Below the pieces are notes generated by a model. That model searched no databases. It was not told the DNA's origin and saw only the letters and a list, made by a program, of their open reading frames with translations. The translations under genes were made by a program, and so were the position numbers. A stretch of 64,000 nucleotides of DNA from a phage: the sequence record PZ445534.1; one strand, written 5' to 3'. Shown here in pieces: positions 8,159 to 19,276 of this stretch; position 1 is the first letter of the stretch, and every line of letters starts with the position of its first letter.

Positions 8159-8732
8159 AAAAGGTCTAGTTAGAACCTTAGTGGGTGTTATTGGTCACAG
8201 ACTAGCTCGTGATAAAAATAATAGACCAAATGTAATTAGAGCTTACCCTTCTGATAACTCAAATGACAAAGGTTTAAAACCTGACCAGCCATTTATTACC
8301 GTATATTGTCAAGATGCTGCAACACCTTATGGTTGGGTTCTTGATAAGTTTGTTGAGGATGATGTAGTTTGCTACAGAATTGCTTTTCAGATTCCAGTAT
8401 TAATTACGGTGAATGGTAAAGGTGCTCACAGTATTATGCTTGAGCTTAAACAACGATTAGAGATGAGTTCAGTCAGAGATTTAATCCTTGAAGAAACAGG
8501 AGCTACAGTACTAGACACTGGAGCTATCCCGAATGACTATACTTATCTCAATACAGATTTCGAAAATTCTGCACCTCTTGTTGTAACTCTTGTAAAAAAC
8601 TCAGTCCTGAAGGATGAACGTGGAAGTATTATTGAGCGTGTCATTGTTGATGGTGAGTTGGTTTATGAAGAAGGACAAGAGCCACCAGAATATACTATCC
8701 ATCTAGATGTAGACTCCAAAGGGGTAAAATAA
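8133..8732 (+). CDS. hypothetical tail completion protein
   Basis: 199 aa ORF preceding putative sheath. Confidence 0.4.
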   Translation: MQLETAELEKGLVRTLVGVIGHRLARDKNNRPNVIRAYPSDNSNDKGLKPDQPFITVYCQDAATPYGWVLDKFVEDDVVCYRIAFQIPVLITVNGKGAHSIMLELKQRLEMSSVRDLILEETGATVLDTGAIPNDYTYLNTDFENSAPLVVTLVKNSVLKDERGSIIERVIVDGELVYEEGQEPPEYTIHLDVDSKGVK

Positions 8733-10085
8733 ATGTGGAATCCAATTGTTAATGTAGATATTACATTGAACACCGCAGGAACTACAAGAGAAGGTTTTGG
8801 TTTGCCACTATTCTTAGCTTCAACAGATAACTTTGAAGAAAGAGTACGTGGTTACACTTCCTTAACTGAAGTTGCTGAAGATTTCGATGAGAATACTGCT
8901 GCATATAAGGCTGCTAAACAACTTTGGAGTCAGACTCCTAAAGTAACTCAGCTTTATATCGGTAGACGCGCTATGCAGTACACTGTATCAATTCCTGATG
9001 CCGTTACCGAAAGTACAGACTACTCAATTACTGTAGCTGTTGGCGGTGGAATTTCTCAACCATACCAGTACACAGCACAAGATTCAGACACTGCTGAGGT
9101 AGTGTTGCAACAGTTTAAAACACAGATTGAAGCTGACCCAACAATCAAAGATAAGGTTTCTGTGAATGTAACTGGTAGCAATGGCTCTGCCACAATGATT
9201 ATTACCAAAGCTGGTGATAATGACTTTGTGAAAGTAACAACCACAGCACAGACTGTATATATTGCAAGTACAACTGCTGATACAGCAGCAACTGCTCTGG
9301 CAGCTATCGAAGCTTACTCTACTGACTGGTATTTCATTGCAGCAGAAGACAGAACTCAACAGTTTGTCTTAGCAATGGCTTCTGAGATTCAGGCTCGTAA
9401 GAAAATCTTCTTTACGGCTAACTCCGATGTAACAGCCCTACAAGGTACAGAATTAGCCAGTGCAAATGATGTTCCAGCACAGCTTGCTAAGAATATGTAC
9501 ACTCGTACAGTTTGCTTGTGGCATCACGCAGCAGCAGAAGATTATCCAGAGATGGCATACATTGCTTATGGTGCTCCATATGATGCAGGCTCAATTGCTT
9601 GGGGTAATGCTCAGCTAACTGGCGTAGCAGCTTCTCTACAACCATCTAATCAGAGACCTCTGACAAGTATTCAGAAGTCTGCTTTAGATGTTCGTCACTG
9701 TAACTTTATTGACCTTGATGGTGGTGTTCCAGTGGTTCGTAGAGGGATTACTTCTGGTGGGGAATGGATTGATATCGTCCGTGGTGTTGACTGGTTAGAA
9801 TCAGACCTGAAAACTTCTCTGAGAGACTTGCTAATTAACCAGAAGGGTGGTAAGATTACTTATGATGATACTGGTATTACCCGTATTCGTCAAGTCATTG
9901 AAACCTCTCTGCAAAGAGCAGTCAACAGAAACTTCCTGTCATCTTACACAGTTAATGTTCCTAAAGCCTCTCAAGTTGCTTTAGCAGACAAGAAAGCACG
10001 TATCCTGAAAGATGTTACCTTCGCAGGTATCTTAGCAGGGGCTATCTTGGATGTTGACTTGAAAGGTACAGTGGCTTACGAATAA
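8733..10085 (+). CDS. putative tail sheath protein
   Basis: 450 aa ORF followed by 148 aa tube-sized ORF, chaperone pair and tape measure; synteny of contractile-tail modules. Confidence 0.45.
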   Translation: MWNPIVNVDITLNTAGTTREGFGLPLFLASTDNFEERVRGYTSLTEVAEDFDENTAAYKAAKQLWSQTPKVTQLYIGRRAMQYTVSIPDAVTESTDYSITVAVGGGISQPYQYTAQDSDTAEVVLQQFKTQIEADPTIKDKVSVNVTGSNGSATMIITKAGDNDFVKVTTTAQTVYIASTTADTAATALAAIEAYSTDWYFIAAEDRTQQFVLAMASEIQARKKIFFTANSDVTALQGTELASANDVPAQLAKNMYTRTVCLWHHAAAEDYPEMAYIAYGAPYDAGSIAWGNAQLTGVAASLQPSNQRPLTSIQKSALDVRHCNFIDLDGGVPVVRRGITSGGEWIDIVRGVDWLESDLKTSLRDLLINQKGGKITYDDTGITRIRQVIETSLQRAVNRNFLSSYTVNVPKASQVALADKKARILKDVTFAGILAGAILDVDLKGTVAYE

Positions 10086-10100
10086 TAGAGGTAAATTGGA

Positions 10101-10547
10101 ATGGCTATGTATCAGCAATATTCCCCTAAAGACGTTGTATGTAGCTGGAATGGTATTGCCATCGAAGGCTTTGCTCCAGACTCATTCTTACGTCTACAGA
10201 GAACTTCTCCACTTGTTACACCAGTTGTTGGTGCAGGTGGTCAGGTTGCTCTGACACGAAATGCAGACAAGACAGGTACTATTGAGATTGAGCTAATGCA
10301 GACTTCTCTCTCTAACCAGATGCTTTCTGCAATTCAAGCTAAACAAGACAATATGGAACTTGAAGAAGATATCTCTTCTAACTTCGTAATCTACGACCCA
10401 TCAGGCTCTGTTCTGGCAACTGGTATTAACGCTTGGTTGCAGGAGTTACCACAGATTGAACTTGGTCGTGACCAGAACTCTAAAACTTGGATTTTTGGTT
10501 GTGAGAAGTTAGACTACACTTCTACAATTCCAGCGTCAAGTGTTTAA
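10101..10547 (+). CDS. putative tail tube protein
   Basis: 148 aa, followed by strong terminator hairpin; synteny. Confidence 0.45.
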   Translation: MAMYQQYSPKDVVCSWNGIAIEGFAPDSFLRLQRTSPLVTPVVGAGGQVALTRNADKTGTIEIELMQTSLSNQMLSAIQAKQDNMELEEDISSNFVIYDPSGSVLATGINAWLQELPQIELGRDQNSKTWIFGCEKLDYTSTIPASSV

Positions 10548-10560
10548 TAAATCCTATAAG

Positions 10561-10591
10561 GGGGAGACTTTAAAAGGTCTTCCCCTTTTTT
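10561..10591 (+). terminator. rho-independent terminator (partial read-through expected)
   Basis: GGGGAGAC...GTCTTCCCC stem followed by TTTTTT. Confidence 0.55.
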
Positions 10592-10619
10592 GTTTCTTTT
10601 AAAGTATTAAGGAATCACA

Positions 10620-11018
10620 ATGAAAACAGAATCTAGAGTAATTAATGGTAAGAAAGTAAATATCGTTCTGCTTGGGGCAAGAGATGGTATTAAGATGTCT
10701 ATGAAGTTGGGTAAGATTGTTGTCCCAACCTTTGCACAGATGCTATCAAGTCTGACTGACAAGGGTAAGAAAGAAGCTCCAATGGTTCCATTTAAAGAAC
10801 TTGTTGAAGCTTGTTTTGACAGAATTGAAGAAATTAACCTTGAAGAGATGGCTACCCTGCTGTTTCAAGGGGCAACTGTTGATGACTTCCCACTTAATAT
10901 TGATACGTACTTCCAAGCAAACTACGGTGAGTTTATTGATTACTTAGCATTTGCGCTGGAGGCAAACTTCGGAAGTTTTTTCGAAGCAAGCATTTTCAAA
11001 AGCCTAACTTCTCAGTAA
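10620..11018 (+). CDS. tail assembly chaperone (G-like)
   Basis: 132 aa ORF immediately upstream of tape measure; contains slippery heptamer near 3' end. Confidence 0.55.
   Translation: MKTESRVINGKKVNIVLLGARDGIKMSMKLGKIVVPTFAQMLSSLTDKGKKEAPMVPFKELVEACFDRIEEINLEEMATLLFQGATVDDFPLNIDTYFQANYGEFIDYLAFALEANFGSFFEASIFKSLTSQ
10976..10982 (+). other. -1 programmed ribosomal frameshift slippery site T_TTT_TTC
   Basis: Heptamer TTTTTTC in X_XXY_YYZ register of the 10620 ORF; -1 frame is open from 10982 into ORF 11021..11260. Confidence 0.55.
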
Positions 11019-11020
11019 AC

Positions 11021-11259
11021 ATGGGTAACACTCTACAGACACCACTAACTGATGCTGCTGTAGAGGCAACCTATGAAGAAGCAGACGAGATGAAATTTGT
11101 GCTTGCTATTTATGGTATGGAAGGGTGTAAAGAAACACTTGACCAACTCTTTGCTATGACATTCTCTGATTTATTATCATTGAGACAATTTCTTGAGATT
11201 CAGAGGTCGTATAAAGAGGAAATTGCTTACAACGAACTTAGAAGAGCAGGAAAAATGTA

Positions 11260-11260
<1 letters not shown>
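11021..11260 (+). CDS. tail assembly chaperone frameshift extension (GT-like C-terminal part), probably expressed as a fusion via the -1 frameshift
   Basis: 79 aa ORF in -1 frame relative to 10620..11018, contiguous open frame from slippery site. Confidence 0.5.

Positions 11261-19276
<8,016 letters not shown>

What the first reader, a model, noticed from the sequence alone, without database searches (positions are those of the whole stretch)
10620..11260. Programmed -1 frameshift in the tail assembly chaperone pair
A T_TTT_TTC slippery heptamer (10976-10982) sits in the correct X_XXY_YYZ register near the 3' end of ORF 10620-11018. The -1 frame is open from 10982 through ORF 11021-11260, immediately upstream of the tape measure gene. 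This is the conserved G/GT-type (P2 E/E+E'-like) chaperone arrangement, so the second ORF is probably not independently initiated.
Basis: partly seen in the sequence, partly recalled or inferred. Interest (0 to 1): 0.45.

Follow-up and report, generated by a model that had tools for sequence, protein, structure and literature searches.

The report
Known tail-chaperone −1 frameshift, Felix O1-like phage
This is the standard programmed −1 ribosomal frameshift that tailed phages use to make a short and a long tail-assembly chaperone from one start codon, here in a Felix O1-like phage; it is real and strongly conserved, but it is already annotated in close relatives.

Summary
T_TTT_TTC (10976-10982) lies in X_XXY_YYZ register in the 132-aa ORF 10620-11018 (Pfam PF21822 Phage_TAC_15). 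The −1 frame is open from 10940 to 11260 and ends on the tape-measure start codon. The window is a Felixounavirus.

- The same slip is already annotated in Salmonella phage Mushroom and Citrobacter phage Michonne, and mentioned in the Moogle and Mijalis genome papers.
- All 24 protein clusters of this chaperone family (20-49% identity to the window protein outside its own cluster, GC 35-66%) keep NNT-TTT-TTY in register with a 78-105-codon −1 extension.
- Most relatives have no start codon for the second ORF. The window's ATG 11021 has no Shine-Dalgarno.
- A Buttiauxella prophage lacks the slippery codons and instead carries a separate in-frame G+T gene, which aligns across the window's predicted junction.

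Additions and corrections:
- No downstream hairpin or pseudoknot exists here or in other Ounavirinae.
- A strong internal Shine-Dalgarno-like GGAGG (10958-10962) sits 13 nt upstream of the heptamer and recurs in 18 of 24 clusters.
- The proteins are not sequence homologues of P2 E or lambda G; only the arrangement is shared.

Novelty: already known. Interest: low.

The parts
10558..10597 (+). Intrinsic terminator-like hairpin plus T-run between the tail tube gene and the chaperone gene (context only).
   Evidence: 13-pair stem (6 G-C pairs) followed by TTTTGTTTCT. The same site is annotated 'rho-independent terminator' in phages AYO145A and Michonne.
10609..10614 (+). Ribosome-binding site (AAGGAA) of the chaperone gene, 5 nt before ATG 10620. 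It is the single initiation site for both products.
   Evidence: anti-SD duplex −6.1 kcal/mol. An RBS is annotated at the equivalent place in Mushroom and Michonne.
10620..11018 (+). 0-frame tail assembly chaperone, 'G-like', 132 aa. This is the major product.
   Evidence: PF21822 Phage_TAC_15, E = 1.7e-19, 71 bits against a cut-off of 22. phrog_1613 and phrog_3840, tail assembly chaperone. It lies between the tube gene (10101-10547) and the tape measure gene.
10958..10962 (+). Internal Shine-Dalgarno-like GGAGG, separated from the heptamer by a 13-nt spacer. Proposed 5' stimulator of the −1 shift (inferred).
   Evidence: Anti-SD duplex −9.3 kcal/mol; only 0.8% of background 9-mers reach −8 or lower. 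It meets the Sharma et al. [quoted passage not shown] An SD-like motif sits at this place in 18 of 24 clusters against a 14% background. The Glu codon there is GAG in 17 of 21 clusters against 9.5 expected, p = 4e-4. No start codon follows it.
10976..10982 (+). Slippery heptamer T_TTT_TTC (Ser-Phe-Phe), the site of the tandem −1 slip.
   Evidence: Register verified. NNT-TTT-TTY is kept in all 24 clusters; the codon-usage chance product is about 1e-23. Michonne's annotated slippage position falls inside the T-run. U_UU.U_UU.C/U are frameshift-prone heptamers in E. coli (PMC4066793).
10982..11020 (+). −1-frame linker RSKHFQKPNFSVN, translated only after the shift. It overlaps the 0-frame tail EASIFKSLTSQ* (dual-coding stretch).
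   Evidence: Synonymous-site conservation peaks at 10968-11003: 7-codon windows score 0.87-0.94 against about 0.3-0.75 elsewhere in the gene. Window 10965-11005 is the only DNA patch still alignable with Erwinia phages. The linker aligns with a contiguous ORF of a Buttiauxella prophage.
11021..11260 (+). 'T-like' C-terminal domain. Most database records annotate it as a separate 79-aa ORF.
   Evidence: phrog_4963, tail assembly chaperone, E = 2.8e-55. No SD before ATG 11021 (+0.7 kcal/mol, against −5.1 to −7.9 for neighbouring genes). Homologous −1 extensions in relatives have no early start codon. Its stop overlaps the tape measure ATG.
10620..11260 (+). Frameshift product 'GT-like', join(10620..10982,10982..11260), 213 aa. 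This is the minor product.
   Evidence: The fusion matches phrog_3840 over positions 6-157 of 158, further than ORF1 alone. BLASTP against a contiguous 201-aa prophage protein runs across the junction, E = 5e-13.
11260..13488 (+). Tape measure protein gene, the client of the chaperones (context only).
   Evidence: PF20155 TMP_3, E = 2e-16. phrog_4036, 1532 bits.

Best explanation
Proposed mechanism (the sequence facts and their conservation are shown; the slip, the role of GGAGG and the protein functions are inferred):

1. Ribosomes start at ATG 10620 and translate the tail assembly chaperone gene.
2. Most ribosomes terminate at TAA 11016-11018 and yield the 132-aa G-like chaperone.
3. A minority slip back one base when the two tRNA-Phe occupy UUU-UUC within U_UUU_UUC (10976-10982).
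4. Those ribosomes continue in the −1 frame through the linker RSKHFQKPNFSVN and the 79-aa 'ORF2'. They stop at 11258-11260 and yield a 213-aa GT-like fusion.
5. The slip is probably helped by pairing of the 16S rRNA 3' end with the internal GGAGG (10958-10962), 13 nt upstream, as in dnaX and IS911. It is not helped by a downstream RNA structure.
6. By analogy with lambda G/GT, both products bind the tape measure protein through the shared G part. The T part of the rare fusion would recruit the tail tube protein. Neither product is expected in the virion.

The ATG at 11021 is a lineage-specific in-frame Met. It causes gene callers to split the gene in two.
For: Identity and synteny:
- The order is sheath, tube, TAC, TMP in a Felixounavirus.

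Prior annotation:
- Mushroom (join) and Michonne (note 'ribosomal slippage') annotate the same slip.
- The Moogle and Mijalis papers mention it.

Conservation of the signal:
- All 24 clusters at under 70% amino-acid identity, spanning GC 35-66%, keep NNT-TTT-TTY in register with a 78-105-codon −1 extension.
- Four of five loci found without conditioning on the SFF peptide also carry it.
- The fifth, a Buttiauxella prophage, has non-slippery TCA-TTC-TTC and a separate in-frame G+T gene. That gene aligns through the window's junction at E = 5e-13.

Against independent initiation of ORF2:
- In 16 of the 24 clusters the first ATG/GTG/TTG in the −1 frame lies 24 or more codons after the shift site; two further metagenomic loci have none before codon 39.
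- In the window ATG 11021 has no SD, whereas all neighbouring genes have one.

Constraint on the overlap:
- Synonymous variation is most strongly suppressed from the heptamer through the overlap.
- This is the only DNA patch conserved as far as Erwinia phages.

Slipperiness and stimulator:
- U6Y heptamers are shift-prone in E. coli.
- The SD-like element meets the published criterion for sequence and spacing and is enriched in the family.
Against: - No protein or reporter data for this phage group were found. All support is comparative or comes from annotation.
- The window has an ATG (11021) two bases after the ORF1 stop, so some independent reinitiation cannot be excluded.
- The nearest outgroups that keep the frameshift (Erwinia, Yersinia and related loci L006, L007, L036, L083) lack the SD-like motif. 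It is therefore not essential, and part of its enrichment follows from the conserved Leu-Glu-Ala/Val peptide.
- Nineteen of the 24 clusters were retrieved with a peptide pattern containing SFF. Only the codon-level and −1-ORF features are unbiased for them.
- A U6 run could in principle also give the same protein by RNA polymerase slippage.
Confidence: 0.9

Rival explanations
1. There is no frameshift. ORF2 (11021-11260) is made as a free 79-aa protein by termination-reinitiation or translational coupling, because its ATG lies 2 nt after the ORF1 stop. The heptamer is incidental.
For: An ATG is present at 11021, and an in-frame Met is also found near this position in Suspvirus and Mooglevirus relatives. 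Most GenBank and RefSeq Felixounavirus records annotate two separate CDS.
Against: - ATG 11021 has no SD (+0.7 kcal/mol).
- The Erwinia phages and most distant clusters have no start codon for the homologous −1 ORF.
- Codon-level conservation of the heptamer has a chance product of about 1e-23.
- The −1 linker upstream of the ATG is conserved and aligns with a contiguous protein.
- Where the heptamer is lost, T is fused in frame to a G-like domain rather than free-standing.
Confidence: 0.04
2. The same 213-aa fusion is produced by transcriptional slippage. RNA polymerase would add one U in the U6 run, giving mRNAs that encode S-F-F-R... without any ribosomal slip.
For: - The product of a U7 transcript is identical to the −1 frameshift product (sequence logic).
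- Relatives have T-runs of 6 (14 clusters), 7 (9 clusters) and 8 (1 cluster).
- A weak hairpin, CTGGAG..CTTCGG, precedes the T-run.
Against: - By general knowledge, runs of 6-7 are short for efficient bacterial RNAP slippage, which usually needs 8-9 or more. The family does not select for longer runs.
- An SD-like motif at the spacing that stimulates ribosomal −1 shifts is enriched. It would be irrelevant to the polymerase.
- The hairpin is weak (6 pairs, 2 of them G-T) and within the chance expectation for the region.
- The precedents with U6N or G_GGA_AAG in P2 and lambda are described as translational frameshifts in the sources read.
Confidence: 0.05
3. The heptamer and the open −1 frame are a chance coincidence with no function.
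For: The in-frame X_XXY_YYZ rate is 0.0037 per codon, so a 26-codon overlap would contain one about 9% of the time.
Against: It is the only one of 69 in-frame heptamers with a −1 frame longer than 28 codons. It is conserved across 24 clusters and the full GC range. The −1 peptide is a recognised family, phrog_4963.
Confidence: 0.01

Closest known systems
Annotated tape-measure-chaperone frameshift of Felix O1-like phages (Salmonella phage Mushroom KP143762; Citrobacter phages Michonne NC_028247, Moogle, Mijalis)
   Same: Same genes, same heptamer and flanks (AGTTTTTTCGA[A/G]GCAAGCATTTTCAAAAGCC), and the same joined product. Michonne's annotated slippage position lies inside the same T-run.
   Different: None of substance. 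The window's nearest records (DaR-2019b at 100% over the 741 bases compared, heid, AYO145A RefSeq) annotate two separate ORFs instead.
Bacteriophage lambda gpG/gpGT (Levin et al. 1993; Xu, Hendrix & Duda 2004, 2013, 2014)
   Same: Position between the major tail gene and the tape measure gene. [quoted passage not shown] Neither product is found in virions (summarised in PMC5009743).
   Different: The heptamer differs (G_GGA_AAG in lambda, from my own knowledge). No sequence-family match was found. Lambda is a siphovirus, whereas this is a contractile-tailed phage. A strong upstream SD-like element is present here.
Bacteriophage P2 E / E+E' (Christie et al. 2002)
   Same: A myovirus with a U6N slip site (TTTTTTG in P2) and a −1 extension. 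No downstream hairpin is present in P2 (PMC3091744) or here.
   Different: P2 E is 91 aa and E+E' 142 aa, against 132 and 213 aa here. No P2 GpE Pfam family matched ORF1 or the fusion at E <= 0.1. The last base of the heptamer is C/T here, not G.
dnaX and IS911/IS3 −1 frameshift signals (SD-stimulated)
   Same: A slippery heptamer preceded by an internal Shine-Dalgarno-like sequence at a spacing shown experimentally to stimulate −1 shifts (6-17 nt rule in PMC4066793). [quoted passage not shown]
   Different: Those signals also use a downstream hairpin or pseudoknot, and none is detectable here. The heptamer is U6C rather than A6G. The role of the SD here is inferred, not tested.

Membership tests
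G/GT-type programmed −1 frameshift of tailed-phage tail assembly chaperones (Xu, Hendrix & Duda 2004) | Two overlapping ORFs located between the major tail/tube gene and the tape measure gene. | tested here: met
   Tube 10101-10547, ORF1 10620-11018, −1 ORF open 10940-11260, TMP 11260-13488.
G/GT-type programmed −1 frameshift of tailed-phage tail assembly chaperones (Xu, Hendrix & Duda 2004) | A slippery X_XXY_YYZ heptamer in the 0-frame register inside the overlap. | tested here: met
   T_TTT_TTC at 10976-10982. It is the only in-frame heptamer inside the overlap 10940-11018.
G/GT-type programmed −1 frameshift of tailed-phage tail assembly chaperones (Xu, Hendrix & Duda 2004) | The downstream ORF lacks its own translation initiation signals. 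| tested here: inconclusive
   The window has ATG 11021 but no SD (+0.7 kcal/mol). Most relatives have no start codon before the conserved T domain. Reinitiation at 11021 cannot be excluded by sequence alone.
G/GT-type programmed −1 frameshift of tailed-phage tail assembly chaperones (Xu, Hendrix & Duda 2004) | The slip site and −1 extension are conserved among diverged relatives. | tested here: met
   24 of 24 clusters. Four of five loci sampled without motif conditioning carry it; the fifth encodes GT as a separate in-frame gene.
G/GT-type programmed −1 frameshift of tailed-phage tail assembly chaperones (Xu, Hendrix & Duda 2004) | The fusion protein is detected and is required, in a fixed low ratio, for tail assembly. 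| not testable with these tools
   This needs mass spectrometry, a reporter assay or phage genetics. No such data for Felix O1-like phages were found in the literature searches.
Pfam PF21822 Phage_TAC_15 | HMM score above the curated gathering threshold. | tested here: met
   ORF1 scores 71 bits against a cut-off of 22, E = 1.7e-19, covering profile positions 1-124 of 127.
P2 gpE / E+E' protein family | Sequence homology to P2 gpE (a Pfam P2 GpE-type model). | tested here: not met
   The Pfam scan of ORF1, ORF2 and the fusion at E <= 0.1 returned only PF21822 and one chance hit. P2 E itself was not compared directly.
Lambda gpG / gpGT protein family | Sequence or fold homology to lambda gpG-type chaperones. 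| tested here: not met
   [not shown]
SD-stimulated −1 frameshift signals (dnaX / IS911 type) | [quoted passage not shown] | tested here: met
   GGAG at 15 nt and GAGG at 14 nt. Anti-SD duplex −9.3 kcal/mol. The rule is taken from PMC4066793.
SD-stimulated −1 frameshift signals (dnaX / IS911 type) | A downstream stem-loop or pseudoknot 5-9 nt after the heptamer. | tested here: not met
   Folding 48-118 nt downstream gave z = +0.84, +0.35 and −1.68. The first 55 nt gave z = +1.03. RNAalifold on 8 Ounavirinae-type sequences predicted 0 pairs. No Rfam match reached a family's gathering score, and none lay in the frameshift region.

The most novel reading that the evidence does not exclude
The most novel reading not excluded is this. 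Across the whole PF21822 chaperone family the U6Y slip site is paired with a positionally fixed internal Shine-Dalgarno-like element, 12-15 nt upstream and written into the conserved Leu-Glu-Ala/Val codons. That element, rather than any downstream RNA structure, would be the ancestral stimulator that sets the G:GT ratio. Lineages that lost it (Erwinia and Yersinia phages) or gained downstream hairpins (high-GC clades) would have retuned the ratio. The Buttiauxella prophage would show an escape route in which G and GT became two genes.
Probability: 0.45. Interest if true: 0.3.

Novelty: already known. Interest (0 to 1): 0.17.

Why it matters
The practical value is in annotation. Most Felixounavirus records, including RefSeq entries and the record that is 100% identical to the window over the 741 bases compared, list two separate small ORFs. 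The biologically relevant products are a 132-aa chaperone and a 213-aa frameshift fusion.

The family-wide analysis adds a small mechanistic point. This chaperone family appears to rely on U6Y plus an upstream rRNA-pairing element rather than a downstream structure. It also offers a natural control, a prophage with no slippery codons and a separate in-frame GT gene. Together these make the G:GT ratio question testable in a phage group used for Salmonella typing and biocontrol.

It does not change what is known about phage tail assembly.

Tried and rejected
- **Downstream stimulator.** Single-sequence folds, 55-nt folds with dinucleotide shuffles for 24 clusters, RNAalifold on 8 Ounavirinae-type sequences and Rfam found nothing for the window's clade. 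Only some distant clades have significant hairpins (L062, L039, L059).
- **Hairpin embedding the slip site.** CUUCGGAA-GUUU-UUUCGAAG and the terminator-like CTGGAG..CTTCGG plus T-run were set aside. Both are weak, are not conserved outside close relatives, and could not form under a ribosome positioned on the heptamer.
- **Unbiased sampling of the family.** The third attempt gave one genome locus.
- **Search with the −1 peptide for natural in-frame fusions.** It returned only 6 short hits and was uninformative.
- **Search with the fusion protein.** It returned only G-type proteins covering 54-61% of the query.
- **Literature.** No experimental demonstration of the fusion in Felix O1-like phages was found.
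- **Alternative slip sites in the overlap.** A U_UUC tetramer at 10994-10997 exists, but its P-site re-pairing (AUU to CAU) is poor. I judged it minor by inspection only.

Full report
**What the window is.** Megablast of 8700-13500 finds 298 phage records. About 250 cover the query at 90-98.5% identity, and all are Felix O1-like myophages (Ounavirinae, Felixounavirus), including Felix O1 itself. The 741 bases around the finding are 100% identical to Salmonella phage DaR-2019b. The local gene order is:
- tail sheath, 8733-10085 (phrog_205)
- tube-type structural protein, 10101-10547 (PF11681, phrog_280)
- ORF1, 10620-11018
- ORF2, 11021-11260
- tape measure protein, 11260-13488 (PF20155, phrog_4036)

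ORF1 is Pfam PF21822 Phage_TAC_15 (71 bits against a cut-off of 22). ORF2 is phrog_4963, 'tail assembly chaperone'.

**Checking the observation.** The codon register of ORF1 puts AGT-TTT-TTC at 10974-10982. T_TTT_TTC (10976-10982) is therefore a correctly phased X_XXY_YYZ heptamer. The −1 frame is open from 10940 to 11260. A shift at the heptamer gives a 213-aa product, …ANFGSFF|RSKHFQKPNFSVNMGNT….

The site stands out within the window. The large ORFs contain 69 in-frame heptamers in 18,881 codons. This is the only in-frame T_TTT_TTC, and the only heptamer whose −1 frame outruns the 0-frame stop (92 codons against at most 28 for the rest). TTTTTTC as a word is under-represented: 13 copies against 27.8 ± 5.1 expected.

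**Prior knowledge.** The same site is already annotated. Salmonella phage Mushroom has a two-piece joined CDS covering exactly ORF1 plus ORF2. The Moogle and Mijalis genome announcements state that the tape measure chaperone has a translational frameshift (PMC4319497, PMC5543628). Most other records, including RefSeq AYO145A and the best match DaR-2019b, list two separate ORFs. I found no experimental demonstration for this phage group.

**Comparative test.** A scan of IMG/VR with a family alignment gave 75 loci. Together with GenBank loci these fall into 24 clusters at under 70% amino-acid identity. Identity to the window protein falls to 20%, and GC ranges from 35% to 66%.
- Every cluster has NNT-TTT-TTY in register, followed by a −1 frame open for 78-105 codons.
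- Nineteen clusters were retrieved through a peptide pattern containing SFF, so the peptide itself is partly a selection effect.
- The codon choices are not. Using each locus's own codon usage, the joint probability of a T-ending Ser/Thr codon plus TTT for the first Phe in all 24 clusters is about 1e-23. This is most striking in high-GC genomes, where each choice has a probability of 0.1-0.3.
- Five loci were obtained without that conditioning. Four have TTTTTTC with a 93-95-codon extension.

**A natural control.** The fifth unconditioned locus is a Buttiauxella noackiae prophage. Its first chaperone gene reads GGC TCA TTC TTC, so it has no slippery run. It is followed by a 201-aa ORF with a weak PF21822 match. 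BLASTP aligns that ORF with the window's conceptual fusion continuously from residue 81 to 208, across the junction (NFGSF--FRSKHFQKPNF against NFGVFLSFVVKPFVKPDF), at E = 5e-13. Where the slip site is absent, GT is encoded as a normal in-frame gene. This supports two points: the T part works as a fusion to a G-like domain, and the −1 linker upstream of ATG 11021 is protein-coding.

**Independent initiation of ORF2.** ATG 11021 has no Shine-Dalgarno (best anti-SD duplex +0.7 kcal/mol). The sheath, tube, ORF1 and tape measure genes have −5.1 to −7.9 kcal/mol. In Erwinia phage phiEa21-4 the homologous −1 ORF has no ATG/GTG/TTG before codon 55 and is left unannotated. In 16 of the 24 clusters the first possible start lies 24 or more codons into the extension. 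In two metagenomic relatives gene callers left a gap there. The ATG in the window is therefore a lineage-specific in-frame Met. Some reinitiation two bases after the ORF1 stop cannot be excluded from sequence alone.

**Constraint on the overlap.** In divergent Ounavirinae pairs (under 85% nucleotide identity), identity at synonymous codons peaks from 10968 to 11003. Seven-codon windows there score 0.87-0.94, against roughly 0.3-0.75 elsewhere in the gene. Window 10965-11005 is the only stretch that blastn still aligns with Erwinia phages (92.7% over 41 nt). This is expected if both frames are translated there: EASIFKS in frame 0 and RSKHFQK in frame −1.

**Stimulatory elements.** None is supported:
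- Folds of 48, 78 and 118 nt downstream give z = +0.84, +0.35 and −1.68.
- The first 55 nt give z = +1.03 in the window and at least −0.23 in the other three Ounavirinae clusters.
- RNAalifold on eight sequences predicts no pairs.
- No Rfam match reaches a family's gathering score, and none lies in the frameshift region.

Some distant clades do have strong hairpins (L062 z = −3.2, L039 z = −2.8, L059 z = −2.5). P2's U6G site also lacks a downstream structure (PMC3091744).

What the window does have is GGAGG at 10958-10962, 13 nt before the heptamer.
- Its duplex with the 16S 3' end is −9.3 kcal/mol. That is stronger than any true RBS nearby, and only 0.8% of background 9-mers reach −8 or lower.
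- No start codon follows it.
- Across the family the anti-SD affinity profile has a single sharp trough at this offset. Fourteen of 24 clusters reach −6 kcal/mol or lower there, against 3.2% of background positions.
- Eighteen of 24 clusters meet the motif rule, against a 14% background.
- Part of this follows from the conserved Leu-Glu-Ala/Val peptide. However, the Glu codon is GAG in 17 of 21 clusters against 9.5 expected from local codon usage (p = 4e-4).
- The Erwinia, Yersinia and related loci lack the motif. It is therefore a probable enhancer, not a requirement.

U_UU.U_UU.C and U_UU.U_UU.U are among the frameshift-prone heptamers in E. coli, and U_UU.U_UU.C is also found among IS-element frameshift motifs.

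**Mechanism and rivals.** The best-supported account is a tandem −1 slip of the two tRNA-Phe on U_UUU_UUC, probably enhanced by rRNA pairing with the upstream GGAGG. It yields a minor 213-aa GT-like fusion alongside the major 132-aa chaperone. Their roles are inferred from lambda G/GT. Three rivals were weighed:
- *Transcriptional slippage* on the U6 run would give the identical protein and cannot be excluded by sequence. It is disfavoured by the short run lengths in the family (6, 7 or 8) and by the SD-like enrichment.
- *Independent initiation only* is contradicted by the comparative data above.
- *Pure chance* is contradicted by the conservation and by the length of the −1 frame.

**Verdict.** The feature is ordinary and already known for this phage group. 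New here are:
- the negative result for a downstream structure
- the upstream SD-like element and its recurrence across the family
- the family-wide invariance of U6Y at codon level
- the prophage with a split G and GT gene pair

Noticed in passing
L084 4001-4986 (Buttiauxella noackiae JPRU01000001, prophage): A relative of the chaperone gene has non-slippery TCA-TTC-TTC. It is followed by a separate 201-aa in-frame G-like+T-like gene and then the tape measure gene. This looks like a natural 'unfused' solution to making G and GT.
   Followed up: partly
window 10558-10597: A strong intrinsic-terminator-like hairpin (13-pair stem plus T-run) sits between the tube gene and the chaperone gene. Relatives annotate it as a terminator. 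It could lower transcription of the chaperone and tape measure genes relative to sheath and tube.
   Followed up: partly
window 11547-11553: An in-frame A_AAA_AAG, the most shift-prone heptamer in E. coli, lies early in the tape measure gene. Its −1 extension is only 5 codons, so a slip would truncate the protein. It is probably incidental.
   Followed up: no
whole window: TTTTTTC is under-represented: 13 copies against 27.8 ± 5.1 in dinucleotide shuffles. This is consistent with avoidance of slippery U-runs outside the programmed site.
   Followed up: no
[not shown]
   Followed up: no
GenBank/RefSeq records MN850577, MW006474, OK272490, NC_028825, MK965970 (L001-L003, L085, L086): These Felixounavirus records annotate the two chaperone ORFs as separate CDS without the ribosomal-slippage join that Mushroom and Michonne use. 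The annotation is inconsistent across the genus.
   Followed up: yes
L062, L039, L059, L042 (IMG/VR loci), 0-55 nt after their heptamers: Some distant clades of the same chaperone family have strong, statistically unusual hairpins just downstream of the U6Y site (z = −3.2, −2.8, −2.5, −1.7), unlike the window's clade. Stimulator type appears to vary within the family.
   Followed up: partly
window 10956-10982: A weak hairpin, CTGGAG-GCAAA-CTTCGG (6 pairs, 2 of them G-T), immediately precedes the T-run and was flagged as terminator-like. It overlaps the SD-like GGAGG. It is within the chance expectation for the region (2 found against 1.1 ± 0.8).
   Followed up: no
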